Source of the DNA: an uncultured Spartobacteria bacterium
GTDB lineage: Bacteria > Verrucomicrobiota > Verrucomicrobiia > Chthoniobacterales > Chthoniobacteraceae
Length of the DNA: 64,000 nt
Assembly: GCA_903882875.1 (NCBI GenBank)
Contig: CAIRYQ010000023.1
Span: 3,680-67,679, forward strand
Direction: 5' to 3'
Positions 42,101 through 50,426 of the stretch are shown one piece after another. Below the pieces are notes generated by a model, which ran no database searches, was not told the origin of the DNA, and saw nothing but the letters and a program-made list of their open reading frames with translations. The position numbers and the translations under genes were made by a program. Every line of letters begins with the position of its first letter. Position 1 is the first letter of the stretch.

Positions 42101-44182
42101 GTGGGGAAAAATAAGGAGGAGCTAATTTCAGCGCGCCGTTCAAAAAGCCAATGGGCACTGGAACAAGCGACTCACTTGCTAATCTACAGACCGCACACCG
42201 AAGCAGAACGCCAAGCCAGCCGCGACAGCTTGCTCGTCCAGATGCTTACCGACCCGGCGGCTCAATTTGAGGTTCCCGCATTACTCATCCTCAATACCAG
42301 GCCTCGCATCCGCATCGGAGCGATGCGAGCACTTGCGCGCTTACCAAAAATCGAAAGCGCCTCGCTCATCCTCGACGCCGCGATCAACGCGCCGAAGGAC
42401 GATCCGTTTTACGAGTTCGCCGCGTGGCTTTCCATCAATGACGTCGCGGAGGTCTGGACGGAGGCGGTGCTCGCCGGGAAATGGAAAATCGAGGGGCGCG
42501 AGAAGCAGTTGGAGTTTGCGCTCGATGCGCTGGATGCGGCCCGCTCCGGCCCCGTCATCGCCGCGCTGCTCAAGGAGCGGCCCATCACCCGCGACGGCGC
42601 GGGCCCGTGGATCGAGCTCATCGGCAAAGGCGGCGGCAAGGCCGAGCTGGAGCAGCTTTTCGAGCGTGTCGCGAAGGGCGACTTCGAGCCGCCCGCATTC
42701 GTCCGCGCGATCAACGCGCTCGCCGACGCCGCCCGCCTCCGCAACCTCCGCCCCGAGGGCAACCTTGCATCCATCAGAATGTGCCTCGTCGATCCTCATG
42801 CGGAGATCGCTTCCGCCGCCGCGCGCCTTGCGGGCCAGTGGCATCTTTCCGAAGTCGTGCCGTATATCGTCAATCTCGCACAGCATCCGGATGAGGGACC
42901 GCGCGCCGCCGCAATCGAGGGATTGCGCAACGTCGGCGGTGCCAAGGCCGTTGACGGGCTGCTATCCCTGACGCGCTCGAGAAGACCGGAGGTTCGGCCC
43001 GCCGCCCTCGCCGCGCTCGCGCAGCTCAAGCCCGCCGCCGCCATTTCCGAAATCCCGACCGTGCTCGGCGCAATCCAGTCCGAGCCCGAGCTGCTCGCCA
43101 CATGGCGCGGCATTTTCCAATCGAAGGAAGCCGCCGACACGCTGGCGAAGAACTTTCCGGCGGACCTCCCGAAGCCCGTCATCACCGCCGCGCTGCACGC
43201 CGCGCGCGAGCTTGGCCGCAAGGGCGAACGTCTCGTCGCGAAACTCGCGCCGCTCGCCGGCGAGAGCCTCGCGAATTTCGTCCCCGCCGATTTCGCCGAC
43301 CTCGCCGCCCGCGCGAAAAAGGACGGCGACCCCGTGGCCGGCGAAGCCCTGTATCGCCGCATGGCCAGCGCCTGCACGACCTGCCACGCCATTGGCGGAG
43401 CCGGCGGCAAGCTCGGCCCCGACCTCACGAGCATCGGCGCGAGCGCACCGGCGGACTACATCATCGAGAGCGTGCTGAACCCCGCCGCGAAAGTGAAGGA
43501 AGGCTACCATGCGTTTTCCTTCGCGATGAAGGACGGCACCGAGGCCATCGGCATCCCGACGCGCGAGACGCCGCAGGAGCAGTTCATCCGCACGATCGCC
43601 GGCGAGCAGGGACTGCCGAAGGCGAACATCGTTTCCAAAAAAATCGCCGAGGGCGGCGCAAGCCTGATGCCCGCCGGCCTCACCGCCGCATGGAGCGACC
43701 GCGAGCGGCTGAACCTCTACGCATTCCTCATGGAGCTGGGCCGCCCCGGCCCCTTCGACGCGAGCAAGAACAACGTGGCGCGCGTGTGGCAGCTCACCGA
43801 CTCCGGCAAAGTGGACGGCGCTCTGAAAGTCGAAGCCGCAGCGTCCACGCCGTCCATCCCGTCCACCTACGCCTACACCCTCGTGGACGGTCGCCTCACC
43901 AAGGACCTCCTCACCGAGAAGCTCGCCATCCTCCAGCCGAAGAACACCGCCGTGCATCTCACCGCGCGCTTCCAAGCCGCGAGCGCCGGCAAGGCCAAGC
44001 TCAACCTCACCGGCATCCGCAAAGCCTGGCTCGACGGCCAGCCCCTCGCCATCGCCAGCGAGCCGAGCCCGAGCGTCGAACTGACCGCAGGCGCGCACAC
44101 TTTCACCGTCGAAGTGGACGCCAAGTCCCCGCCCGAAGTCCTGCGCCTCGAATCGCCCGCGGCGAATTTCCTCGGGGACTGA
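39197..44182 (+). CDS. Giant secreted multidomain protein: SGNH/GDSL-like hydrolase + PVC-type membrane-bound-dehydrogenase beta-propeller + HEAT repeats + CxxCH cytochrome c domain
   Basis: The ATG at 39197 gives signal peptide MRTPLLSLVLALAAIFSTHA. SGNH block DGDRVLFLGDTLLERE. FTLADGLEISLWAENPLLAKPTEMNWDAQGRLWVA matches the Pirellula/Verrucomicrobium dehydrogenase N-domain type. HEAT-like repeats (VRPAALAALAQL). Heme motif CTTCHAIGGAGGKLGPDL. Contains three repeat families, listed separately. Confidence 0.85.
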   Translation: MRTPLLSLVLALAAIFSTHAAEPFEIKDGDRVLFLGDTLLEREGTYGYLETRMAEQFPDRKFTVRNLAFSADTPLGWSRASFDPAAKGFERLKEQLALVQPTVVFLGYGMAASLQEMTDRSQDWTLNRDTARYGAEPMSAGRFKRELAQLMDAIVEGNRKPDTGYRKGEDGDADASKQNLSGIRYPVSGFRFVLLSPIRHEDLRATRPGLPDPTEHNKLLEQYSKAIEELAKERGARFVSLNFPLIYHLTPEQIATNMGGPNPILLTDNGIHLNEVGYVGMLRQMCEALSWGSYLGKGVALGEPISTPPGPKFTQEDIAASLKWHERKEALRAAIIRKNALFFHRWRPANETYLFGFRKREQGQNAVEIPKFDPLIEAAEAEIEKLKHAPKGASVMPSEDGATADIHGGVSPELPAVSAEHRSVSGEHRSVSDEHRSVSGEHRSVSDEHRSVSGEHRSVSGEHRSVSDEHRSVSDEHRSVFDEHRSVFDEHRSVFDEHTAASAQQKADFQPQTPVFTSAGQLYAANDTPAIGNQPPVTSHQSPVTSPDPARQTPAETPDLSKLPASPSTLPLPTFTLADGLEISLWAENPLLAKPTEMNWDAQGRLWVASSALYPMIAPGQAADDKILILEDPGHTGKGTKSTVFVDGLLLPTGVAPVLVEDRKADTGNRKGEDGDADASKQNLSGIRSPVSGIARWACYVGQSTELLYFEDTQGTGKADKKRIVLSGFGTEDTHHIVHTLRWGPDGRLYFNQSVYIHTHMETPWGVVRLNSGGVFAYDPRTERVEVVTKGLWNTWGHAWDQWGQSFLSDGAGFSGISWAFPGAVFNPSEGSRRQMPSISPGSYPKFAGLELIYSPHFPAEWQGTAVTCDFRAHKIVHFKINDLGLEQSAKSGYVTDQLPVLAQTSDATFRPIDVKLGPDGAIYIADWSNPIINHGEVDFRDPRRDHEHGRIWRLSMKGGAAVKWESLVGKNKEELISARRSKSQWALEQATHLLIYRPHTEAERQASRDSLLVQMLTDPAAQFEVPALLILNTRPRIRIGAMRALARLPKIESASLILDAAINAPKDDPFYEFAAWLSINDVAEVWTEAVLAGKWKIEGREKQLEFALDALDAARSGPVIAALLKERPITRDGAGPWIELIGKGGGKAELEQLFERVAKGDFEPPAFVRAINALADAARLRNLRPEGNLASIRMCLVDPHAEIASAAARLAGQWHLSEVVPYIVNLAQHPDEGPRAAAIEGLRNVGGAKAVDGLLSLTRSRRPEVRPAALAALAQLKPAAAISEIPTVLGAIQSEPELLATWRGIFQSKEAADTLAKNFPADLPKPVITAALHAARELGRKGERLVAKLAPLAGESLANFVPADFADLAARAKKDGDPVAGEALYRRMASACTTCHAIGGAGGKLGPDLTSIGASAPADYIIESVLNPAAKVKEGYHAFSFAMKDGTEAIGIPTRETPQEQFIRTIAGEQGLPKANIVSKKIAEGGASLMPAGLTAAWSDRERLNLYAFLMELGRPGPFDASKNNVARVWQLTDSGKVDGALKVEAAASTPSIPSTYAYTLVDGRLTKDLLTEKLAILQPKNTAVHLTARFQAASAGKAKLNLTGIRKAWLDGQPLAIASEPSPSVELTAGAHTFTVEVDAKSPPEVLRLESPAANFLGD
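39665..39771. repeat. Intragenic palindromic element, copy 1 (inverted heptamer-array arms + 43-nt core), in frame
   Basis: Left arm ggaaaccggaaaccggataccggataccgg. Right arm ccggtatccggtatccggtatccggtttccg (reverse complement). The 58-nt core 39690-39747 is 57/58 identical to 41202-41259. Confidence 0.85.
40445..40690 (+). repeat. 21-nt tandem repeat, ~11.7 copies, in frame (VS[G/D/A]EHRS)n
   Basis: The unit gaacaccggtcggtgtctg[g/a]c is repeated head to tail. Each unit contains the palindrome acaccg-gt-cggtgt. The last three units share a variant (ttt, giving VFDEHRS). Confidence 0.9.
40803..40830 (+). repeat. Heptamer array CAGTCAC x4 inside the CDS
   Basis: Exactly four tandem copies. 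It is the same heptamer family as the leader hairpin at 39102-39156. Confidence 0.9.
41181..41280. repeat. Intragenic palindromic element, copy 2, in frame
   Basis: accggaaagcggataccggaaaccgg, then the core, then ccggtatccgctctccggtatccggtatcg. It has the same codon phase as copy 1 and encodes the near-identical peptide RKGEDGDADASKQNLSGIR. Confidence 0.85.
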
Positions 44183-44186
44183 TCCC

Positions 44187-44287
44187 CGTAGCCGCCGGCG
44201 GAAGGAGGCGGGCTGATCTTTCTTTCCGCGTTCCGAGATCCGAACTCCGCACTTCAAGGCACCCGCCTCCTTCCGTCGGCGGCTACG
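44187..44287. repeat. REP-like inverted repeat (27-nt arms, 47-nt spacer) just after the stop of the giant gene
   Basis: cgtagccgccggcggaaggaggcgggc (44187-44213) versus acccgcctccttccgtcggcggctacg (44261-44287), 25/27 complementary. A solo arm copy gccgacggaaggaggcgggc lies at 51794-51813. Confidence 0.8.
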
Positions 44288-44350
44288 ATAATTCTCCGCT
44301 CGCCTTGAGGTCACCTGAACTGCTCTCGTCCCCGGCACTTTTCACAGGCC

Positions 44351-44910
44351 ATGCCGTCACGAACATCCATTACGGATGAAGCCGTCAGCGCCATCCGTTC
44401 GCTGTACGAAAGCGGCGCCTACGTCGCGGCGTGGCAGCGCACGCAGTCGCTGCCGCCATTCCGCGAATGGGCCGGCGCTGCCGCGCTCACGATCGCGGGA
44501 CGGCTGCTGAACAACCTCGAAGCGCCGCGGCTCGCGCACGCGCTACATGCCCGCGCATGGCGGGAGCATCGCGGCGACCCCGATGCAGCGTATTACCGTG
44601 CGAGCACGATCGCCCGGCGCTTCGGTCCGTTGCGTGCGCTGCGCTTCCTCGACTCGCTTCCGCGACTTCGAGCGCGCGGATGCGCTGCTGAAGGAGGCGC
44701 TGGAACTCGACGGCACGAGCGCGTGGCTGTGGGTCGAGCACGCGTGGTGCATGGAGCGTGCGGACCGTTACGCCGCCGCGCTCGAATCCGCCCGGCGCGC
44801 ATTCGATCTGTGACCATGGTACCGGCCTGCGGTGCAGCGCGTCGCGCATCTTCTCACGCTGCTCGGCCGCGATGATGATGCGCTCGCCTTGCTCCGCGAT
44901 GCATCGGCGC
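44351..44910 (+). pseudogene. Decayed helical-repeat (TPR-like) gene: frameshift, in-frame TGA, then IS insertion. A 3' remnant continues at 47333-47512.
   Basis: The reading frame switches near 44657-44664 (FLDSLP / RDFERADALLKEALELDG). There is an in-frame TGA at 44811-44813. Joining 44911 to 47341 restores the frame (...DASARFIIYDWQSIG...). Confidence 0.55.
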
Positions 44911-45286
44911 GACTGGAAAGGGGGATAATATACTTGCGTGCCCAAACCCCCTGAGAGCGCCGCGATCCCGTTGCCTCTCAGTTCTTGCGCGCCTTGCGCT
45001 TCGCGGCCCTGATGTTCCTCTCGTTCGCTAGGGCGCGATCCACTTTAATCTTCGGTGCCGCGAGCACCTGCTTTGCGAACGCCCGGAGCTTGTCAAACGG
45101 GGTCGGCTCCGGTGTGGCTGGCGCAGGTTGGCTCATGTCTTTGGGTAGCAAAGACAGCGAGGAGACGCAATCGTGATCATGATTCGGATTGACATCCTGA
45201 ATCCGATGCAGGACGCGGCAATCTCATGCCTCTGAACGTGAATGACCCGCACGAGTTCCAACCTACTGACCTCCGCACTCGGGAAT

Positions 45287-45622
45287 TTATTCTTCGTCGC
45301 GCTTGGCGTTTGGGTCGGTCGGAAAATAAGCCCGGTATCGATCCTCACCCTTCAGCGAGTTCCGCATGTCCACGGATTCGGCGAGTGATGGGTTTTGCTG
45401 CCTCATTTCTTCGAGCATGTCGTCGTAAACTGTTTGGATGATCTTCCCAAGGCCGGCCCGCTCAACCTCGAACTTCGTGCCGTGCATTTCCGCTGAAACC
45501 GATGATAAATGTGCTGCCAGTGCTTCAAGTTGAGCGGATTGCAAATAGACGAGTTGGCGCAAAAAATCGATCTCCGAATGTATCTCTTTCACGGCCTCTG
45601 CTGGCGTCTGTTCGTCGCTCAT
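45287..45622 (-). CDS. Hypothetical protein (111 aa) inside the IS element
   Basis: Reasonable coding composition and acidic, helical character. Lies downstream of the transposase on the same strand. No family recognised. Confidence 0.5.
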   Translation of the reverse strand: MSDEQTPAEAVKEIHSEIDFLRQLVYLQSAQLEALAAHLSSVSAEMHGTKFEVERAGLGKIIQTVYDDMLEEMRQQNPSLAESVDMRNSLKGEDRYRAYFPTDPNAKRDEE

Positions 45623-45753
45623 GTGACGCGATTAACCACGCCGCATTCAGCGCCGTCAATCACTGGCTTTTCCTCATCGCCTTTGCAGCCCGGAGCGCAT
45701 TCGCGAGCCGCTTGAGGCATCGCGTGTTGCACCGCTTCCCGCGTCCCTCCCGC

Positions 45754-46731
45754 TTATGCAGCGGGTCGAAGCCCGTCATCACCGATCAGCTTCTTGTATG
45801 TCAGCCGCTTGCCGATGATGCCGTTGATTGCTTTCAGGAACCGACCCTGATCGTCGTCCTTCCGTTCGTTGAAACGGAAAACCTGTTCCGTGACGTAGCG
45901 GTGCAAATGGAAGGGCTCAACGCTGATGTACGTTCCTTTGATGGCGCGTTTCAAGAGCGCCCAGAAGTTCTCAAGACCGTTCGTGTGGACGTTGCCTTGC
46001 ACGTAGGCTTTCGCGTGATCCACGACTTTGTGAATGAAATCGCGCTGCACGTCCTCGTAAATCTTGGACGAATCCGTGTGGACTTCCGTGCCCTTCTCAA
46101 CGGTCGCGTGCATGTGGGGCATTGCCGTGCGCTTTGTGGGCACCTTGGGCAGCACGGCGGCAAACACCTTGGAAACGGGATGCGCTTCCGTGGGGCGTTG
46201 CAGAAGGCCGACAACCGCCGTTTTCGCGTACCAGCCGTTGCCCTGCGTGATTCCACGACGGCGCTTGACGTTCTTGTGCATGAACTCGGCGCGCCCGCCG
46301 ACGTAGGTTTCATCGGCTTCAATCGTGCCGGTCATTTTGACAATCGAGCCGTTCTGGATCGCAAGGCGAATGCGGCCCAGCATGAACCAGCCCGTCTTTT
46401 GCGTGACGCCGATCGCGCGGTGGATCTCGTAGCTGCTGATTCCGTTCTTCGCATTCGTGAGAAGCCAGAAGGCCATCATCCATTTGCCGAGCGGCAGAGG
46501 CGAGTCCTGAAAGATTGTGCCGAAGCGCACACCGTATTTGTGCGAGCATCCCTTGCATTTCCACATCCGGCGCGAGGCAAGGAAATACGATTTCTTCGAT
46601 GCACAGCGCGGGCACGTCGCCTCGCCATTCTCCCAGCGGATCGAGCGCACGAATTCAAAGGCCCGCTGCTCATCGGCGAAGAAAACAATCGTCTCTTGCA
46701 GCGTCTCGGGAAATTCGTTTTCTGTTTTCAT
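45754..46731 (-). CDS. IS1595-family transposase (N-terminal zinc ribbon + ISXO2-like DDE domain)
   Basis: CPRCASKKSYFLASRRMWKCKGCSHKY zinc ribbon and IEADETYVGG DDE block. About 325 aa from the ATG at 46731; the track ORF extends to a GTG at 46749. Confidence 0.85.
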   Translation of the reverse strand: MKTENEFPETLQETIVFFADEQRAFEFVRSIRWENGEATCPRCASKKSYFLASRRMWKCKGCSHKYGVRFGTIFQDSPLPLGKWMMAFWLLTNAKNGISSYEIHRAIGVTQKTGWFMLGRIRLAIQNGSIVKMTGTIEADETYVGGRAEFMHKNVKRRRGITQGNGWYAKTAVVGLLQRPTEAHPVSKVFAAVLPKVPTKRTAMPHMHATVEKGTEVHTDSSKIYEDVQRDFIHKVVDHAKAYVQGNVHTNGLENFWALLKRAIKGTYISVEPFHLHRYVTEQVFRFNERKDDDQGRFLKAINGIIGKRLTYKKLIGDDGLRPAA

Positions 46732-46768
46732 CTTGACTAAAAGTAGCACATCAATTCAGATTGAGTCA

Positions 46769-46963
46769 ATGAAAAAAAGTAGCACAAAAAAGAAAGTTTC
46801 TCGTGGGCGGCCAACGGTGCCCGCGAAGAAAAAGCGCAGCCTGACCATCTCGTTTCGCGCCACCGCCGCAGAGCAAGAACGCATTGAGCGGGCCGCATTG
46901 CGGGCCGCCACTCGCGCAACGACGTGGATACGCAACGTGGTGCTCGCCGCTGCCGCTGATTGA
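46769..46963 (+). CDS. Small basic ribbon-helix-helix-like protein (MobC/CopG-like), divergent from the transposase
   Basis: 64 aa. A Lys/Arg-rich N-terminus is followed by RSLTISFRATAAEQERIERAALRAATRATTWIRNVVL, a pattern typical of RHH DNA-binding proteins. The assignment is by pattern only. Confidence 0.5.
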   Translation: MKKSSTKKKVSRGRPTVPAKKKRSLTISFRATAAEQERIERAALRAATRATTWIRNVVLAAAAD

Positions 46964-46973
46964 CAGCGGGGTG

Positions 46974-47046
46974 TACCGAGGGTAGGATTTGAACCTACAA
47001 GCTCCGACCTAGATCATCGGTGTTCGTTCCATCGAACTGCCTCGGC
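46974..47046 (-). tRNA. tRNA-like cloverleaf (anticodon position UCU, Arg-like) with atypical features; possible pseudo-tRNA
   Basis: The minus strand reads GCCGAGG-CA-GTTC-GATGGAAC-GAAC-A-CCGAT-GATCTAG-GTCGG-AGCTT-GTAGG-TTCAAAT-CCTAC-CCTCGGT-A. All four stems pair and the T-loop is canonical. However, positions 8 and 33 are C and A instead of U, and no CCA is encoded. Confidence 0.4.
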
Positions 47047-47558
47047 GGTTCCGGTAATCGTGGGCGCTGCAACGCCCGCGACGCGGAAAGTGGTTGCTGG
47101 GAAAGGGGTCGCATCCCGGTGTGAAAGACTGCGACGACAGCAGCGCCACCGCGGACTCGCGATGACTGCCGGGATGCGATTTGGAAGTTGGCTTCTGCAT
47201 GTGCGTCACGGTCTTTCACAACCGTGATTCGCGGCGTCCTGCATCGGTCTGGAAATGGCAAGAAAAATCTTCAGGACTGACCAAGGCACCCTAATTCATG
47301 GGCATCCAAGTATATTATTCCCCTTTCCAGTCCCGGCGCGTTTCATTATTTACGACTGGCAATCCATCGGCGCGCGCAACGAAGCGTGCCCGCGCTGTCA
47401 CCAGCACGGCAGCGGACGAGCGAGTTTTTTTTTGCCTTGTGAAAAAGCCGTTAAGAAACCTCCGCGTTCCCGATTCTCCAATCAATGCCTCACTTGCAAC
47501 CCTGCCTGCTAGGGCTGCCTCACCGGGCGGTGAGTGTGAGTTTCCTGTCCCCTAATCC

Positions 47559-50426
47559 ATGAAACATTCCCTCCTCCTTCTCGGGCTTCTGCCTGCCGTC
47601 GTCCTCGCAAATGCGATCCGTCCCGCCGAGCCGGCAGCGGACAAAGCATCGAAACTTGCGGGTGCCGCGAAAATCACAAAGACCGCGGGCGAGCGATGGA
47701 AGGACATCGCGAAGGCGGACGATGCGAGTTTCCGCAGGCATGTGATTCCGCTGATGTCGCGCGCAGGTTGCAGCGGGCGCGAGTGCCACGGATCGTTCCA
47801 AGGGCGCGGCGGATTCCAGCTTTCGCTGTTTGGCTACGACTTTGAAAAGGATCACGAGGCGATCACTCAGGGGAAGGGCGGCGCGGAGGAAGTGCGCGTG
47901 GATTTGAAGGATCCGATGAAGAGCCTCATCATCGCGAAGCCGGCGCTCGACGGCGAGGAGCACAAGGGCAAGAAGCGGTTCGAAAAAGGATCGTGGGAAT
48001 ACAATCTGATTCTCAAGTGGATTCAGGCGGGCGCAAAATCGGACGTCGCGGAAACGGGTGATTTTGCGCGTCTCGAAGTGCTGCCGAAGGAACTCGTTTT
48101 CAAGAAGAGCGGCGAGGCGATACAGCTCAAGGTGATCGCTTACTGGAAGGACGGCACGGTCGAGGATGTCACGCAGCTCACACGCTTCCGCACGAATGAC
48201 GAGTCGGTGGCGCTCGTGAATGACACGGGCCTCGTGACCTCGAAGACGCCGGGCGACACGCACATCGTGGCATTTTACGACAATGGCGTGGAGCCGGTGC
48301 CCGCGGTGCTGCCGGTCTCGGACAAGGTCGGCGCAAATTTCCCGAAAGTGCGCACGCCCACGAAGGTGGACGAGATCGTGGTCGCGAAGCTGCGCAAGAC
48401 AGGGATCCTGCCGAGCGAGATCTGCACGGACTCGGAGTTCTTGCGGCGCGCTTCGCTCGATGTCACGGGCACGCTGCCGACGGCGCGCGAGGCGGAGACT
48501 TTTGCAAAGGACACCGCGCCGGACAAGCGCGCGAGAAAGATTGACGAACTGCTCTCGCGCCCGGCCTACGCGGCGTGGTGGACGACAAAGCTGTGCGATT
48601 TTACCGGGAACAATCCGCGGCGCATCCGCCTCGGCGGAAACGTCGGGCGCAACTTGGGCGGTGAGATGTCGAAGCAGTGGTACGACTGGATTTACAAGCG
48701 CATCGCGGAGAACACGCCTTATGACAAGCTCGCGGCAGGCATCGTCCTAGCGACGAGCCGCACTAAGCCGGATCAAAAGTACGGGGAATTCGTGCATGAG
48801 ATGGGCAGCTATTTCCGCAAGGAGAATCCCGCAGACTTTGCGACACGGCCAAATCTGCCGTGGTATTGGATGCGGCAGAATGTGCAGAAGCCGGAGGAAA
48901 AGGCGCTGTCGTTTGCGCACACGTTCCTCGGCGTGCGCATTGAATGCGCGCAGTGCCACAAGCATCCGTTCGACCAGTGGACGAAGACGGACTTCGAGCA
49001 CTTCCAGGCATTTTTCTCCGGCGTCGCGGGCGGATCCAAGGGCGGTGGTGAGAAAATGTCGAAGGGCGATGCAGCCGCAGCGGCGGCGTCGGGCGAGATG
49101 ACGCCTGCGAGCCTGCGCGCGGAGATCAAGGCCACGGTGGACAAGGCGATGGACGGCAAAGTGGAGGACATGAAGAAAGGCAACGAGCGGCAAAAGATCG
49201 AGCAGACGGAGATGGGCCGGCGCATCAGCGCAGGCGAGCCGATTCCGTGGGACGAGCTTTACGTGGACATCAAGCGCGTCGGCCAGCCGATGAAGCAGGA
49301 CAAGAAAGATTTTCAGAACAGTTCGCGAGTGATCACGCCAAAGATCCTCGGCGGCACGGAAGTGATGATGGAGCAATACAATGATCCGCGCGCACCGCTG
49401 ATGGAATGGCTGCGCAGCAAGGAGAACCCGTATTTTGCAAAGGCATTCGTCAACCGCGTGTGGGCGTCTTATTTCAGCCGCGGCATCGTGGAACCCGCGG
49501 ACGACCTGAACCTCGCGAACGCGCCGAGCAATGCGGAGCTGTTCAATTACCTCGCAAACGGATTCATCGCGCACAATTTCGACATCAAGTGGCTGCACCG
49601 CGAAATCCTGAACAGCGACACGTATCAGCGGAGCTGGAAGACGAACCCGACAAACAAGCTCGACGAGAAAAACTTCAGCCATGCGGTGATCCGCCGCCTG
49701 CCCGCCGAGGTGGTCTTTGATGCTATCGCGATGGCCACGGCCTCGACGGAGCGCGCGGAGAAATTCGCGACCGACATCACCGACCGCACCATCGGCCCGA
49801 ACGCGATTTCGGGTACCGTCGGCAAGGGTGGCGGCGGTGGCGACTCCTACGCAATGACCATCTTCGGCAAACCCGCCCGCGAGGTGAACTGCGACTGCGA
49901 ACGCACGACCGATCCGACCTTGCTCCAGACGATCTACACGCGGAACGATCCAAACCTTCTGACCAAGGTCGAAGGCTCCAACCGCTCGGGCTGGATGGAC
50001 GAGGTGCGCAACCAGTTCACTCCGGTGCAGGATCGGAGCCCCGAGGCCATCCGCGGCAAGATCGCGAAGATGGATGCGAAATTCGCGGAAGTGGTGAAGG
50101 AGCCGAAGAAACCCGAACCGGGCAATGCCAAGGCCGATGCCGGTTACCAGGAGCAGATGCGGCAGTATGAAAGCCGCGTCGCCGAAGTGAAGGTGCAGCG
50201 CGCCGAACTCACGAAGCAGCTCGCCGAGGCGGAAAAGCCGAGGCGGAAACTGGATCTCGACACCGCGATTGGCGAAATATTTCTCCGCACCGTGAGCCGT
50301 CCCGCCACCGCCGATGAAGTCGCGCAGGCGAAGACCGACATCGCCGCCGCAAAGACGCCCGTGGACGGCATCCGCGATTTGCTCTGGGCCATGCTGAACA
50401 CGCGCGAATTCATGGTGAACCACTGA
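47559..50426 (+). CDS. DUF1549/DUF1553 domain protein (PSCyt-type) with Ig-like domain
   Basis: Signal peptide. LMSRAGCSGRECHGSFQGRGGFQLSLFGYD matches DUF1549, and ECAQCHKHPFDQWTKTDFEHFQAFF matches DUF1553. It is followed by its usual DUF1501 partner. Confidence 0.9.
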   Translation: MKHSLLLLGLLPAVVLANAIRPAEPAADKASKLAGAAKITKTAGERWKDIAKADDASFRRHVIPLMSRAGCSGRECHGSFQGRGGFQLSLFGYDFEKDHEAITQGKGGAEEVRVDLKDPMKSLIIAKPALDGEEHKGKKRFEKGSWEYNLILKWIQAGAKSDVAETGDFARLEVLPKELVFKKSGEAIQLKVIAYWKDGTVEDVTQLTRFRTNDESVALVNDTGLVTSKTPGDTHIVAFYDNGVEPVPAVLPVSDKVGANFPKVRTPTKVDEIVVAKLRKTGILPSEICTDSEFLRRASLDVTGTLPTAREAETFAKDTAPDKRARKIDELLSRPAYAAWWTTKLCDFTGNNPRRIRLGGNVGRNLGGEMSKQWYDWIYKRIAENTPYDKLAAGIVLATSRTKPDQKYGEFVHEMGSYFRKENPADFATRPNLPWYWMRQNVQKPEEKALSFAHTFLGVRIECAQCHKHPFDQWTKTDFEHFQAFFSGVAGGSKGGGEKMSKGDAAAAAASGEMTPASLRAEIKATVDKAMDGKVEDMKKGNERQKIEQTEMGRRISAGEPIPWDELYVDIKRVGQPMKQDKKDFQNSSRVITPKILGGTEVMMEQYNDPRAPLMEWLRSKENPYFAKAFVNRVWASYFSRGIVEPADDLNLANAPSNAELFNYLANGFIAHNFDIKWLHREILNSDTYQRSWKTNPTNKLDEKNFSHAVIRRLPAEVVFDAIAMATASTERAEKFATDITDRTIGPNAISGTVGKGGGGGDSYAMTIFGKPAREVNCDCERTTDPTLLQTIYTRNDPNLLTKVEGSNRSGWMDEVRNQFTPVQDRSPEAIRGKIAKMDAKFAEVVKEPKKPEPGNAKADAGYQEQMRQYESRVAEVKVQRAELTKQLAEAEKPRRKLDLDTAIGEIFLRTVSRPATADEVAQAKTDIAAAKTPVDGIRDLLWAMLNTREFMVNH

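What the first reader, a model, noticed from the sequence alone, without database searches (positions are those of the whole stretch)
47049..47298. ~250-nt ORF-poor structured segment between the tRNA-like gene and the right IS end, with mutually exclusive helices
No convincing ORF covers this stretch; only shadow-like ORFs do. It contains an 11-bp perfect long-range helix (47109-47119 with 47169-47179). A 9-10-bp helix (47120-47129 with 47211-47220) crosses the first helix, so the two are either a pseudoknot or alternatives. A local hairpin (47206-47211 with 47222-47227) competes for the same 3' strand. A small GC hairpin lies at 47062-47077. On the minus strand the order is right TIR, this segment, tRNA-like, then the transposase gene region. 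That is the position where other IS families encode guide or regulatory RNAs. No such RNA is known to me for IS1595, so this is speculative, but it is the best candidate in the window for an undescribed RNA component.
Basis: inference. Interest (0 to 1): 0.6.

Follow-up and report, generated by a model that had tools for sequence, protein, structure and literature searches.

The report
Conserved knotted leader RNA in transposon
The stretch holds a real, conserved, non-coding folded RNA element of no catalogued family, whose two crossing helices are both kept by compensating mutations. It sits in front of a tRNA-shaped gene inside a jumping gene, and it looks like a control leader for the element's cargo, not a guide RNA.

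Summary
It lies inside a 2404-bp IS1595-family element (44920-47323, two copies in this genome), between the transposase-side end and a non-canonical tRNA-like gene.

Only part is conserved. The 73 nt next to the end (47226-47298) are unalignable. 47049-47225 is conserved in a related element (L051).

A covariance model of the 121-nt core (47105-47225) found two more diverged copies. One is in a second IS1595 element of this same genome. The other is beside an IS1-like transposase in a congener.

Across the four copies, 91.6% of pair positions (one sequence at one pair) form pairs. 15 of 37 pairs changed on both sides; 0 of 500 shuffles reached this. That includes helix A, which the model did not contain. 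Both crossing helices are therefore selected, as a pseudoknot or a two-state switch.

Indels rule out a protein. No complementarity to ends, targets or the tRNA-like gene was found, so the guide-RNA idea has no support. Best reading (about 50%): a cis-acting leader RNA that controls the cargo behind it. No expression data exist. This scan noted similar IS1595 leader-plus-tRNA-like modules on other DNA.

The parts
44920..47323 (-). IS1595-family (ISNwi1-type, passenger-carrying) element that contains the finding; transposase sense is the minus strand
   Evidence: The repeat boundary is exact to within a base or two. The ends of contigs C21 and C107 overlap it by 125 nt, starting at 44919 and ending at 47324. 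The IS is its own 2406-nt Logan contig at depth 18, against flanks at 8 and 11.7. Ends were set by aligning its inverted repeats with those of 14 relatives. Pfam: DDE_Tnp_IS1595 2e-33 and Zn_ribbon_IS1595 1e-12.
47299..47323 (-). Terminal inverted repeat on the transposase-upstream side (GGGGAATAATATACTTGGATGCCCA)
47226..47298 (-). Unconserved distal spacer. It may hold the promoter of the leader: a weak candidate is -35 TTTCCA at 47250-47255, a 17-nt spacer, then -10 GCGAAT at 47227-47232. It also holds one arm (47231-47247) of a 17-nt inverted repeat with 45203-45219.
   Evidence: 42% identity to L051, which is background level. Homology starts abruptly at 47225. The promoter is inferred from the sequence only; the consensus scan found none here.
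47105..47225 (-). Conserved 121-nt core of the leader RNA: helices B, A and D plus the start of a CU-rich tail
   Evidence: Covariance models R1 and R2 match it at 133-144 bits, L051 at 105-115, L078 at 59 then 120, and L080 at 58.5.
47204..47220 (-). Helix B, 5' arm (pairs with 47120-47136)
   Evidence: I4. 6 of 17 pairs changed on both sides; 87.7% of pair positions (one sequence at one pair) form pairs.
47120..47136 (-). Helix B, 3' arm
47169..47179 (-). Helix A, 5' arm (pairs with 47109-47119). It crosses helix B.
   Evidence: I20. 4 of 11 pairs changed on both sides; 95.5% of pair positions form pairs. Helix A was not part of the model structure used to find or align the copies.
47109..47119 (-). 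Helix A, 3' arm. It directly abuts the 3' arm of helix B.
47145..47166 (-). Hairpin D (9-bp stem, loop AGUC), lying between the 5' arm of A and the 3' arm of B
   Evidence: 5 of 9 pairs changed on both sides; 94.1% of pair positions form pairs.
47096..47108 (-). CU-rich element (CCCCUUUCCCAGC) just after helix A. All four copies keep a CU-rich run there (CCUUUUCC, CCUUUUUC, CCUUCC in the others).
   Evidence: Alignments. In minimum-energy folds it pairs with the Shine-Dalgarno sequence of the ORF behind it in L078 and L080, and with the 5' arm of helix B in L051.
47050..47087 (-). Hairpin C: a long GC-rich stem-loop with a 6-nt loop, ending 3 nt before the tRNA-like gene
   Evidence: The stem is kept while the loop varies in the X3 and X5 contigs, with one U-A to C-G double change and one C.A to C-G repair.
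46973..47046 (-). Non-canonical tRNA-like gene (anticodon loop GAUCUAG, A33, C8, G14), directly downstream of the leader on the same strand
   Evidence: ARAGORN and Rfam tRNA at 38.4 bits. 97% identical in L051. In L046 it is replaced by a 61%-identical cloverleaf carrying many compensatory changes.
46769..46963 (+). 64-aa ribbon-helix-helix protein gene, convergent with the tRNA-like gene and divergent from the transposase gene
   Evidence: Pfam NikA-like 5e-05 (below the cutoff) and NCBIfam MbpA 4e-3 to 9e-5. 75% identical protein P0121 beside a 95%-identical transposase. Also present in L046 and L051.
45754..46731 (-). IS1595-family transposase gene (325 aa from the ATG at 46731)

Best explanation
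Window 47049-47225, read on the minus strand, is the structured 5' leader of the cargo transcription unit of an IS1595-family element.

Proposed layout of the RNA:
- It probably starts near 47225 (ACGGUUG...).
- It forms hairpin D and one or both of two crossing helices, B (17 bp) and A (11 bp).
- A CU-rich element follows, then the long hairpin C.
- It then runs straight into the tRNA-like gene.

Shown here: the element is conserved, non-coding and under selection for helices A, B and D. It recurs in front of other cargo, namely small ORFs and/or a tRNA gene, in other IS1595 or IS1-type contexts.

Inferred: it acts in cis as a two-state or pseudoknotted regulatory leader. In one state the purine-rich 5' arm of B (GAAAG) pairs with the 3' arm of B. 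That leaves the CU-rich element free to mask whatever lies downstream, which is the ribosome-binding site of the small ORF in the copies that have one. In the other state helix A forms and the 5' arm of B captures the CU-rich element.

In this window the downstream cargo is the tRNA-like RNA. Here the leader would set how much of that RNA is made, and how much read-through continues antisense to the RHH gene into the transposase gene. RNase P would be expected to cut the leader off at the tRNA-like 5' end.

The 73 nt next to the IS end are spacer, possibly holding the promoter.
For: 1. Selection on the sequence. Core identity to L051 is 71%, against 42% in the adjacent distal part. The transposases are only about 71% identical at the protein level. 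Differences fall preferentially in unpaired columns: 21 of 104 paired against 29 of 75 unpaired, Fisher p = 0.011.

2. Selection on the structure. In four copies, 91.6% of pair positions (one sequence at one pair) form pairs, against 33-43% when partners are slid by 1-3 columns. 15 of 37 pairs changed on both sides, against 0-2 when slid. 0 of 500 shuffles reached this. Helix A was absent from the model that found and aligned the copies, yet has 4 double changes and 95.5% pairing.

3. Non-coding. Indels are not multiples of three. There is no protein homologue and no Pfam hit.

4. Orientation and role. In all four copies the core lies upstream of, and on the same strand as, the cargo:
- the tRNA-like gene here and in L051;
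- a Shine-Dalgarno sequence, a 37-aa ORF and a tRNA in L078;
- a Shine-Dalgarno sequence and a 24-aa ORF in L080.
Conservation begins sharply at ACGG/ACUG.

5. Masking. The CU-rich element pairs with the Shine-Dalgarno sequence in the minimum-energy folds of L078 and L080, and with the 5' arm of B in L051.

6. Two states. States B+D+C and A+D+C are nearly equal in energy here: -55.2 against -54.0 kcal/mol. The minimum-energy fold picks B here and A in L051.

7. Cargo, not core machinery. Relatives with 45-66% identical transposases (the locus searches) have the inverted repeat only about 45-60 nt from the transposase start. They carry neither the leader nor the tRNA-like gene.
Against: - No transcript evidence exists. 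No RNA run holds the sequence, so the strand, the start and the RNase P cut are all inferred.
- The wobble test does not settle the strand: 9 G.U against 6 A.C pair positions, p = 0.3. Fold energies are similar on both strands.
- Only four full copies are known. The alignment was fitted to helices B and D, which inflates their counts.
- The promoter-like hexamers are weak, and the consensus scan found none here.
- In this window no ORF follows the core. The masking mechanism is therefore extrapolated from L078 and L080 and rests on minimum-energy folds only.
- Helices A and B might form together as a pseudoknot rather than alternate. The data cannot tell these apart.
Confidence: 0.5

Rival explanations
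1. The conserved helices act at the DNA level, as hairpins or cruciforms. Examples would be an origin of transfer served by the NikA/MbpA-like RHH protein, or subterminal sites read by the transposase. On this reading it is not an RNA at all.
For: - The only family hits of the RHH protein, all weak, are to relaxosome accessory proteins: NikA-like 5e-05 and MbpA down to 9e-05.
- IS1595-family passenger elements with a working oriT are known: MTnSag1 and tISCpe8 (PMC5704250).
- This IS lineage appears to insert into the 6-nt loops of GC-rich hairpin-like targets. Hairpin C has just that shape.
- The strand is not settled by wobble pairs or by energy.
Against: - The core is always oriented with the downstream tRNA-like gene or Shine-Dalgarno sequence and ORF.
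- L078 and L080 carry the core without any RHH gene nearby, and at different positions relative to the transposase gene.
- No relaxase gene was noticed in any of these loci, though no dedicated search was made.
- Conservation starts at a sharp 5' boundary, as in a transcript.
- The RHH hits are below the curated cutoffs.
Confidence: 0.1
2. It is a guide or bridge-type RNA that directs the transposase to its target or to the IS ends.
For: - It lies between the IS end and the transposase gene, where other IS families encode such RNAs.
- Both copies in this genome sit at the same rare 12-mer, GACTTTCCAGTC. That 12-mer occurs only twice more in 5.8 Mb, so targeting is specific.
- A 7-mer of that target (TTTCCAG) occurs in the unconserved distal part, and CCCCUUUCCCAG in the linker resembles the junction of IS end and target.
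Against: - Matches between an element's own target and its own interior are 7-9 nt. Other elements' targets match as well or better (mean about 8, maximum 9-11) across 16 element-target pairs.
- Relatives without the module, for example L037 and L038, also hit one shared 11-12-mer. Site choice therefore does not need this RNA.
- The CU-rich motif is conserved in copies whose elements sit at unrelated sites.
- The core also sits in front of small ORFs and beside an IS1-like transposase.
- DDE transposases of the IS1595 type are not known to use guide RNAs (established knowledge of the family).
Confidence: 0.04
3. The functional RNA is the plus strand. The stretch would be the long structured 3' UTR of the RHH mRNA, which reads through the antisense of the tRNA-like gene. 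The helices would then stabilise or terminate that mRNA.
For: - In IS1-like elements carrying the same RHH plus convergent tRNA-like pair, the strong GC hairpin beyond the tRNA-like gene is followed by a U-tract in the RHH sense. It is therefore terminator-like for the RHH transcript (sequences).
- Plus-strand folding is as stable as minus-strand folding.
- Two mismatches on the minus strand would be G.U pairs on the plus strand.
Against: - In this window and in L051 no U-tract follows hairpin C or helices A or B in the plus sense.
- L078 and L080 have the core but no RHH gene upstream in the plus sense.
- More pairs are G.U on the minus strand than on the plus strand: 7 against 3 distinct pairs.
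Confidence: 0.12
4. It is functionless captured flanking DNA, for example the upstream region of a former chromosomal tRNA gene. On this reading the helices are chance features of GC-rich sequence, kept only because the copies are recent.
For: - The module is cargo that most relatives lack.
- GC-rich DNA folds well in any case.
- The two-sequence comparison alone was not significant: 66 of 500 shuffles reached it.
Against: - Copies with no blastn-detectable similarity (L078, L080) keep all three helices through 15 double changes.
- The neighbouring 73 nt have decayed to 42% identity while the core is held.
- Stems change less than loops, p = 0.011.
Confidence: 0.04

Closest known systems
Riboswitch-type and attenuator-type 5' leaders with mutually exclusive helices that mask a ribosome-binding site
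   Same: It is a conserved leader of about 120-180 nt upstream of, and on the same strand as, its cargo. Two competing helices share strands. A CU-rich segment can pair with the downstream Shine-Dalgarno sequence in L078 and L080.
   Different: No ligand, protein or tRNA partner is known. In this window the cargo is a tRNA-like RNA and not an ORF. No Rfam family matches. The two helices may instead coexist as a pseudoknot.
IS1595-family 'transporter IS' (passenger-carrying ISNwi1/ISPna2-type elements; Siguier, Gagnevin and Chandler 2009, as cited in PMC5704250; MTnSag1, tISCpe8)
   Same: The host element has the family's zinc-ribbon plus DDE transposase, its inverted repeats and short target duplications, and it carries passenger sequence.
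   Different: The described passengers are protein genes (for example lnu) and an oriT. A structured RNA leader with a tRNA-like gene was not found as a described passenger in the paper library. This lineage makes 6-bp duplications, whereas 8 bp is reported for MTnSag1 and tISCpe8.
IS110-family bridge RNAs and IS200/IS605 omega-RNAs (IS-encoded guide RNAs)
   Same: It is a structured non-coding RNA encoded next to an IS end and the transposase gene.
   Different: No loop is complementary to the target or to the ends beyond control level. The transposase is a DDE enzyme of another kind. Sister elements do without it. The core also leads small ORFs.
Structured 5' leaders of tRNA precursors, and the upstream-pseudoknot-plus-tRNA-like-structure ends of plant virus RNAs
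   Same: A pseudoknot-capable domain and a hairpin lie directly 5' of a tRNA-shaped module. RNase P would be expected to separate the two.
   Different: It is bacterial and transposon-borne. The tRNA-like part has an unusable anticodon loop (A33). There is no replication role and no sequence relation.
Protection of IS10/IS50-type transposase genes from outside transcription by RNA structure (established IS biology, recalled and not tested here)
   Same: A structured RNA region lies between the IS end and the transposase gene. It could blunt read-through from flanking genes.
   Different: Here the transposase gene has its own promoter region 590 nt inside the element, with an RHH gene in between. 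The structure is far from the transposase start codon.

Membership tests
Any Rfam 15 RNA family | Match to a curated covariance model | tested here: not met
   cmscan at E up to 10 over 44000-49000 finds only the tRNA model at 46974-47046. Nothing matches in 47049-47298. Nothing matches at the homologous cores of L078 or L051 (gathering scan).
IS1595 family insertion sequence (the host element) | Transposase with N-terminal zinc ribbon and ISXO2-like DDE domain | tested here: met
   PF12762 2.2e-33 and PF12760 1.3e-12
IS1595 family insertion sequence (the host element) | Terminal inverted repeats and a short direct target duplication | tested here: inconclusive
   The inverted repeats are present and match those of 14 relatives, which show clean 6-bp duplications. 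Here the flanks are TGGAAA / TTTCCA in copy 1 and TTTCCA / TGGAAA in copy 2. A direct duplication is recovered only if the two copies exchanged flanks by recombination.
IS110-type bridge RNA / IS605-type omega-RNA (guide RNAs) | RNA segments complementary to the target site and/or to the element's ends | tested here: not met
   Own-target matches of 7-9 nt are no better than those with foreign targets, which average about 8.
IS110-type bridge RNA / IS605-type omega-RNA (guide RNAs) | Association with the cognate recombinase or nuclease (DEDD/serine IS110 recombinase; TnpB/IscB) | tested here: not met
   The neighbouring genes are DDE transposases of IS1595 or IS1 type.
Conserved structured RNA (generic criterion) | Helices maintained by compensatory substitutions in diverged homologues | tested here: met
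   15 of 37 pairs changed on both sides, 91.6% pairing, 0 of 500 shuffles reaching this, slid controls 0-2. Caveat: only 4 sequences, and the alignment was fitted to helices B and D but not to A.
Conserved structured RNA (generic criterion) | Evidence of transcription, with defined ends and strand | not testable with these tools
   No RNA run is listed as holding the sequence. Only DNA contigs could be laid.
T-box leader | Specifier or other pairing with the partner tRNA, and the T-box motif | tested here: not met
   No complementary stretch of 7 nt or more between the leader and the tRNA-like gene. The one 6-mer found here is not kept in L051. No Rfam T-box hit.
Intrinsic terminator | GC-rich hairpin followed directly by a U-tract | tested here: not met
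   The scan finds none in 46960-47400 on either strand. Hairpin C is followed by AUUACCGG on the minus strand and by AAGUGGUUG on the plus strand.
Origin of transfer with RHH accessory protein | A relaxase partner or recognisable nic site, and an accessory protein passing its family threshold | tested here: inconclusive
   The RHH hits to NikA-like (23.8 bits, cutoff 27) and MbpA (17-22 bits, cutoff 90) are below threshold. No relaxase gene was noticed in these loci, but neither relaxases nor nic sites were searched for. The core also occurs without the RHH gene.

The most novel reading that the evidence does not exclude
The core, hairpin C, the tRNA-like RNA and the small RHH protein together form a previously unrecognised regulatory or addiction-like RNA-protein module that IS1595 and IS1-type transposons carry across bacterial phyla. 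In it a pseudoknotted leader senses a cellular signal, for example translation or tRNA-processing status. It then sets the level of a tRNA mimic and, through antisense read-through of the RHH repressor gene, the level of transposition.
Probability: 0.15. Interest if true: 0.85.

Novelty: new variant of a known kind. Interest (0 to 1): 0.62.

Why it matters
DDE insertion sequences are usually seen as a transposase gene between two inverted repeats, at most with protein-coding passengers. Here a transposon lineage carries a selected, pseudoknot-capable RNA leader joined to a tRNA mimic. The same leader recurs in front of other cargo in different transposons.

If it is a switch, it would show how such elements time the expression of their cargo, or of the transposase itself. 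It would also add a new RNA motif, with a testable two-helix architecture, to the short list of IS-borne RNAs.

Other agents in this scan independently noted 'structured leader plus tRNA-like gene' cargo in IS1595 elements of several phyla. The phenomenon may therefore be widespread and overlooked.

Tried and rejected
Expression:
- No RNA holder was listed for 46700-47340. Only DNA contigs could be laid.

Searches for more copies that found nothing:
- JGI metagenome scan with the anticodon-arm 23-mer.
- JGI metagenome scan with the RHH alignment.
- IMG/VR pattern scan.
- Plasmid collection, distant blastn.
- blastn of the module in 151 family genomes and 401 phylum genomes: only chance-level short hits, or none.
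- Model R2 in 150 class and 150 phylum genomes: nothing above 25 bits.

Weak model hits set aside as probable false positives:
- L079 (25 bits) lies in GC-rich, apparently coding sequence with no transposase homologue or tRNA nearby.
- L081 and L082 score 23-24 bits with many unpaired positions.

DNA that could not be fetched:
- The contig of the 95%-identical transposase P0001, which has the RHH gene in the same place.
- The contigs of P0123 and P0124.
- L051's genome is not held for genome searches.

Ideas tested and dropped:
- Protein-coding reading: the 88-aa frame has no homologue and no Pfam hit.
- Leader pairing with the tRNA-like gene: nothing of 7 nt or more; a single 6-mer match is absent from L051.
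- Guide-RNA matching to targets: no excess over controls.
- A REP-like repeat family as the insertion target: the hairpin motif is not repeated in the genome.
- Strand assignment by wobble pairs or by energy: inconclusive.
- Promoter: the consensus scan found none in the stretch. The hexamers I name are weak and picked by eye.
- Leaders of the IS1-like RHH/tRNA-like modules (L058-L073) do not match models R1 or R2. Only the 'strong hairpin just upstream of the tRNA-like gene' is shared, and that as architecture only.

Full report
**Observation.**
- The perfect 11-bp helix 47109-47119 / 47169-47179 is present (I20).
- A crossing helix is present and is longer than reported: 47120-47136 / 47204-47220, 17 nt, 88% complementary (I4).
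- The competing 6-bp hairpin 47206-47211 / 47222-47227 is present.
- The GC hairpin around 47062-47077 is the core of a longer stem-loop, 47050-47087.

The 250 nt fold better than dinucleotide shuffles on both strands, with z -2.9 and -3.2. Rfam has no match in the stretch even at E = 10.

**Context.** The stretch lies inside a 2404-bp IS1595-family element, 44920-47323. The boundaries are fixed in two ways.
- Two contig ends of the same assembly overlap the element by exactly 125 nt.
- Its inverted repeat, GGGG(G/A)ATAATATACTTG, aligns with those of 14 related elements.

In the source metagenome the IS is its own contig at depth 18, against flanks at 8 and 11.7. That fits two copies.

Read on the minus strand, the order of parts is:
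1. Inverted repeat (47323-47299).
2. The stretch (47298-47049).
3. A non-canonical tRNA-like gene (47046-46973; A33, C8, G14; Rfam tRNA 38 bits).
4. A 64-aa ribbon-helix-helix gene on the other strand (46769-46963).
5. A 37-nt divergent control region with two AAAGTAGCACA repeats.
6. The transposase gene (46731-45754).
7. Two small ORFs.

The genome has an ordinary tRNA-Arg(UCU) elsewhere.

**The module is cargo.** In most of the related elements fetched (transposases 45-66% identical), the inverted repeat lies only about 45-60 nt upstream of the transposase start. L033 and L047 instead carry other upstream passengers. None of them has a tRNA-like gene or this stretch. Only the closest lineage has the module:
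- P0001 (95% identical transposase) has the RHH gene in the same place, but its DNA could not be fetched.
- The P0002 cluster (71%) includes L046 and L051, both with the RHH gene and a tRNA-like gene.
- Short contigs from peat and soil metagenomes carry it too (X3, X4, X5).

**Conservation.** L051 aligns with the window from 47225 inwards.

| Region | Identity to L051 |
|---|---|
| Distal part, 47226-47298 | 42% (unalignable) |
| Core and hairpin C, 47049-47225 | 71% |
| tRNA-like gene | 97% |
| RHH gene | 75% |

Indels of 1, 4, 1, 1, 3 and 2 nt rule out a conserved reading frame. The 88-aa frame has no homologue. Differences are rarer in paired than in unpaired columns: 21 of 104 against 29 of 75, p = 0.011.

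With two sequences the covariation was only suggestive, with 3 double changes and 66 of 500 shuffles as high.

**More copies.** A covariance model of the 121-nt core (47105-47225) was built with helices B and D only. It found a diverged copy in the same genome at C50:1095-1213, scoring 59 bits, E about 5e-13. blastn had not seen this copy. It lies in a second, unrelated IS1595 element whose transposase is 32% identical.

The rebuilt model found another copy in a congener, G129:C7:184618-184733, at 58.5 bits. That copy lies about 870 nt upstream of an IS1-like transposase gene.

In the four-sequence alignment:
- 91.6% of pair positions (one sequence at one pair) form standard pairs, against 33-43% when partners are slid by 1-3 columns.
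- 15 of 37 pairs changed on both sides, against 0-2 when slid.
- No shuffle out of 500 reached any of the measures.
- By helix, the double changes number 6 in B, 4 in A and 5 in D.

Helix A was not in the model, so its four compensatory pairs and 95.5% pairing are independent of the alignment procedure. Both of the crossing helices are therefore under selection. The order along the RNA is B5'-A5'-D-B3'-A3', with B3' and A3' contiguous. This allows either a pseudoknot with long loops or two alternative states. The two nested states are nearly equal in energy here, at -55.2 and -54.0 kcal/mol. The minimum-energy fold picks B here and A in L051.

**Hairpin C.** Its stem is kept while its loop varies in X3 and X5. 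There is one U-A to C-G double change and one C.A to C-G repair.

**What follows the core.**
- Here and in L051: a CU-rich element, hairpin C, then the tRNA-like gene.
- In L078: CCUUUUUC, a Shine-Dalgarno sequence with a 37-aa ORF, a small hairpin, then an 86-nt tRNA gene.
- In L080: CCUUCC, a Shine-Dalgarno sequence with a 24-aa ORF, then a hairpin followed by a T-run.

The core is thus always upstream of its cargo and on the same strand. Conservation starts sharply at ACGG/ACUG. That is my main reason for reading it as a minus-strand 5' leader.

In minimum-energy folds the CU-rich element pairs with the Shine-Dalgarno sequence in L078 and L080. In L051 it pairs with the purine-rich 5' arm of B. 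This suggests a masking switch, but it is inference only. Wobble pairs (9 G.U against 6 A.C) and energies do not settle the strand. No RNA data exist.

**Guide-RNA idea.** The two copies here sit at the same rare 12-mer, GACTTTCCAGTC. Even so, three results argue against a guide RNA.
- Own-target matches inside each element (7-9 nt) are no better than matches to other elements' targets.
- Elements without the module also show shared target sites (L037 and L038).
- The leader has no conserved complementarity to the tRNA-like gene.

**Wider module.** RHH homologues (35-43% identical) were found in 18 of the 400 other class genomes sampled. From sequence I count at least 10 of the 20 fetched loci with a tRNA-shaped gene convergent with the RHH stop. 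ARAGORN and Rfam flag 6 of these; the rest I read. The divergent gene there is an IS1-like DDE transposase.

Five of the eight such loci that I folded have a strong GC hairpin ending 12-16 nt upstream of the tRNA-like gene. This is the same architecture as hairpin C. In the RHH sense that hairpin is followed by a U-tract (sequences). Those leaders do not match models R1 or R2.

The RHH protein's only family hits, all weak, are to relaxosome accessory proteins. IS1595 passenger elements with an oriT are known (PMC5704250). I therefore keep a DNA-level or oriT reading as a minor rival.

**Literature and earlier notes.** Searches of the paper library found no description of such an RNA in IS1595 or IS1 elements. 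Earlier AI notes of this scan report a tRNA-like gene plus a structured leader in IS1595 elements of other phyla, and a tRNA-mimic reading for 46974-47046. I used these as leads only. The claim of a small RNA pairing with the tRNA, made for another genome, was not reproduced here.

**Verdict.** This is a real, conserved, non-coding, pseudoknot-capable RNA-type element of an undescribed family. It most likely acts as a cis-acting leader of transposon cargo. The guide-RNA analogy is not supported. Expression, strand and mechanism remain to be shown.

Noticed in passing
window 44906-44919 and 47324-47340; L002 1490-1501; L003 1490-1501: The 6-bp flanks of the two IS copies are swapped. Copy 1 has TGGAAA on the left and TTTCCA on the right; copy 2 has the reverse. 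Relatives make clean 6-bp direct duplications. The pattern fits two insertions into the same 12-mer, GACTTTCCAGTC, in opposite orientations, followed by recombination between the two copies (an inversion or another rearrangement).
   Followed up: partly
L031-L050 element ends; window 44906-44919 / 47324-47340: This IS lineage seems to insert into a mostly AT-rich 6-mer flanked by GC-rich inverted repeats, that is, the loop of a hairpin-like site. Examples are GAGCATCC-AAATTA-GGATGAGC, GTGATGGC-TTCTCA-GCCGTCAC and GCCGGGAC-TTTCCA-GTCCCGGC. L037 and L038, from different assemblies, share one target core. The duplication is 6 bp, not the 8 bp reported for MTnSag1 and tISCpe8.
   Followed up: partly
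L057-L076 (for example L058 1673-1747, L061 1396-1470, L073 1380-1453, L059 1678-1767, L066 1408-1479): A small RHH gene with a convergent tRNA-shaped gene right after its stop recurs in other Verrucomicrobiota, next to IS1-like DDE transposase genes. Many of these cloverleaves carry a conserved UUACAC-type anticodon loop, with stop-codon-like anticodons UUA or CUA and a pyrimidine at position 37.
   Followed up: partly
window 46973-47046 versus L051 271-344 and L046 20-93: The elements are mosaics. The tRNA-like gene is 97% identical between elements whose transposases are only about 71% identical (with anticodon UCU against CCU). L046 and L051 share a 90%-identity transposase cluster, yet their cloverleaves are only 61% identical and differ by many compensatory changes. 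This suggests cassette exchange. Contigs of this lineage often break inside the module.
   Followed up: partly
window 46734-46750 and 46770-46786: Two 17-nt direct repeats (TGAC/AAAAAAGTAGCACA) bracket the 37-nt region between the divergent transposase and RHH start codons. The region has face-to-face TTGACT boxes and is 87-92% conserved in L046 and L051. It is a likely operator for the RHH protein, and both genes look nearly leaderless.
   Followed up: no
window 45203-45219 and 47231-47247: A 17-nt inverted repeat (16 of 17 complementary) links the unconserved distal part of the stretch to a site between the 111-aa and 57-aa ORFs, 2 kb away. By my rough estimate about 0.01 such repeats are expected by chance in 3 kb. 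No equivalent was seen in L051, whose distal part is incomplete.
   Followed up: partly
G000 C50 (L078 1-2713): A second, unrelated IS1595-family element in the same genome carries the leader core, a 37-aa ORF and an 86-nt tRNA with a long extra arm (ARAGORN: Pro, UGG; Rfam 54.6 bits). The tRNA is convergent with the transposase gene. A sub-threshold Acido-Lenti-1 hit (30 bits) lies at L078 88-123.
   Followed up: partly
window 44187-44287: A long GC-rich inverted repeat just after the 1688-aa gene gives spurious microRNA-precursor hits in Rfam at about 24 bits. It is outside the finding and was already noted by the scan as a REP-like repeat.
   Followed up: no
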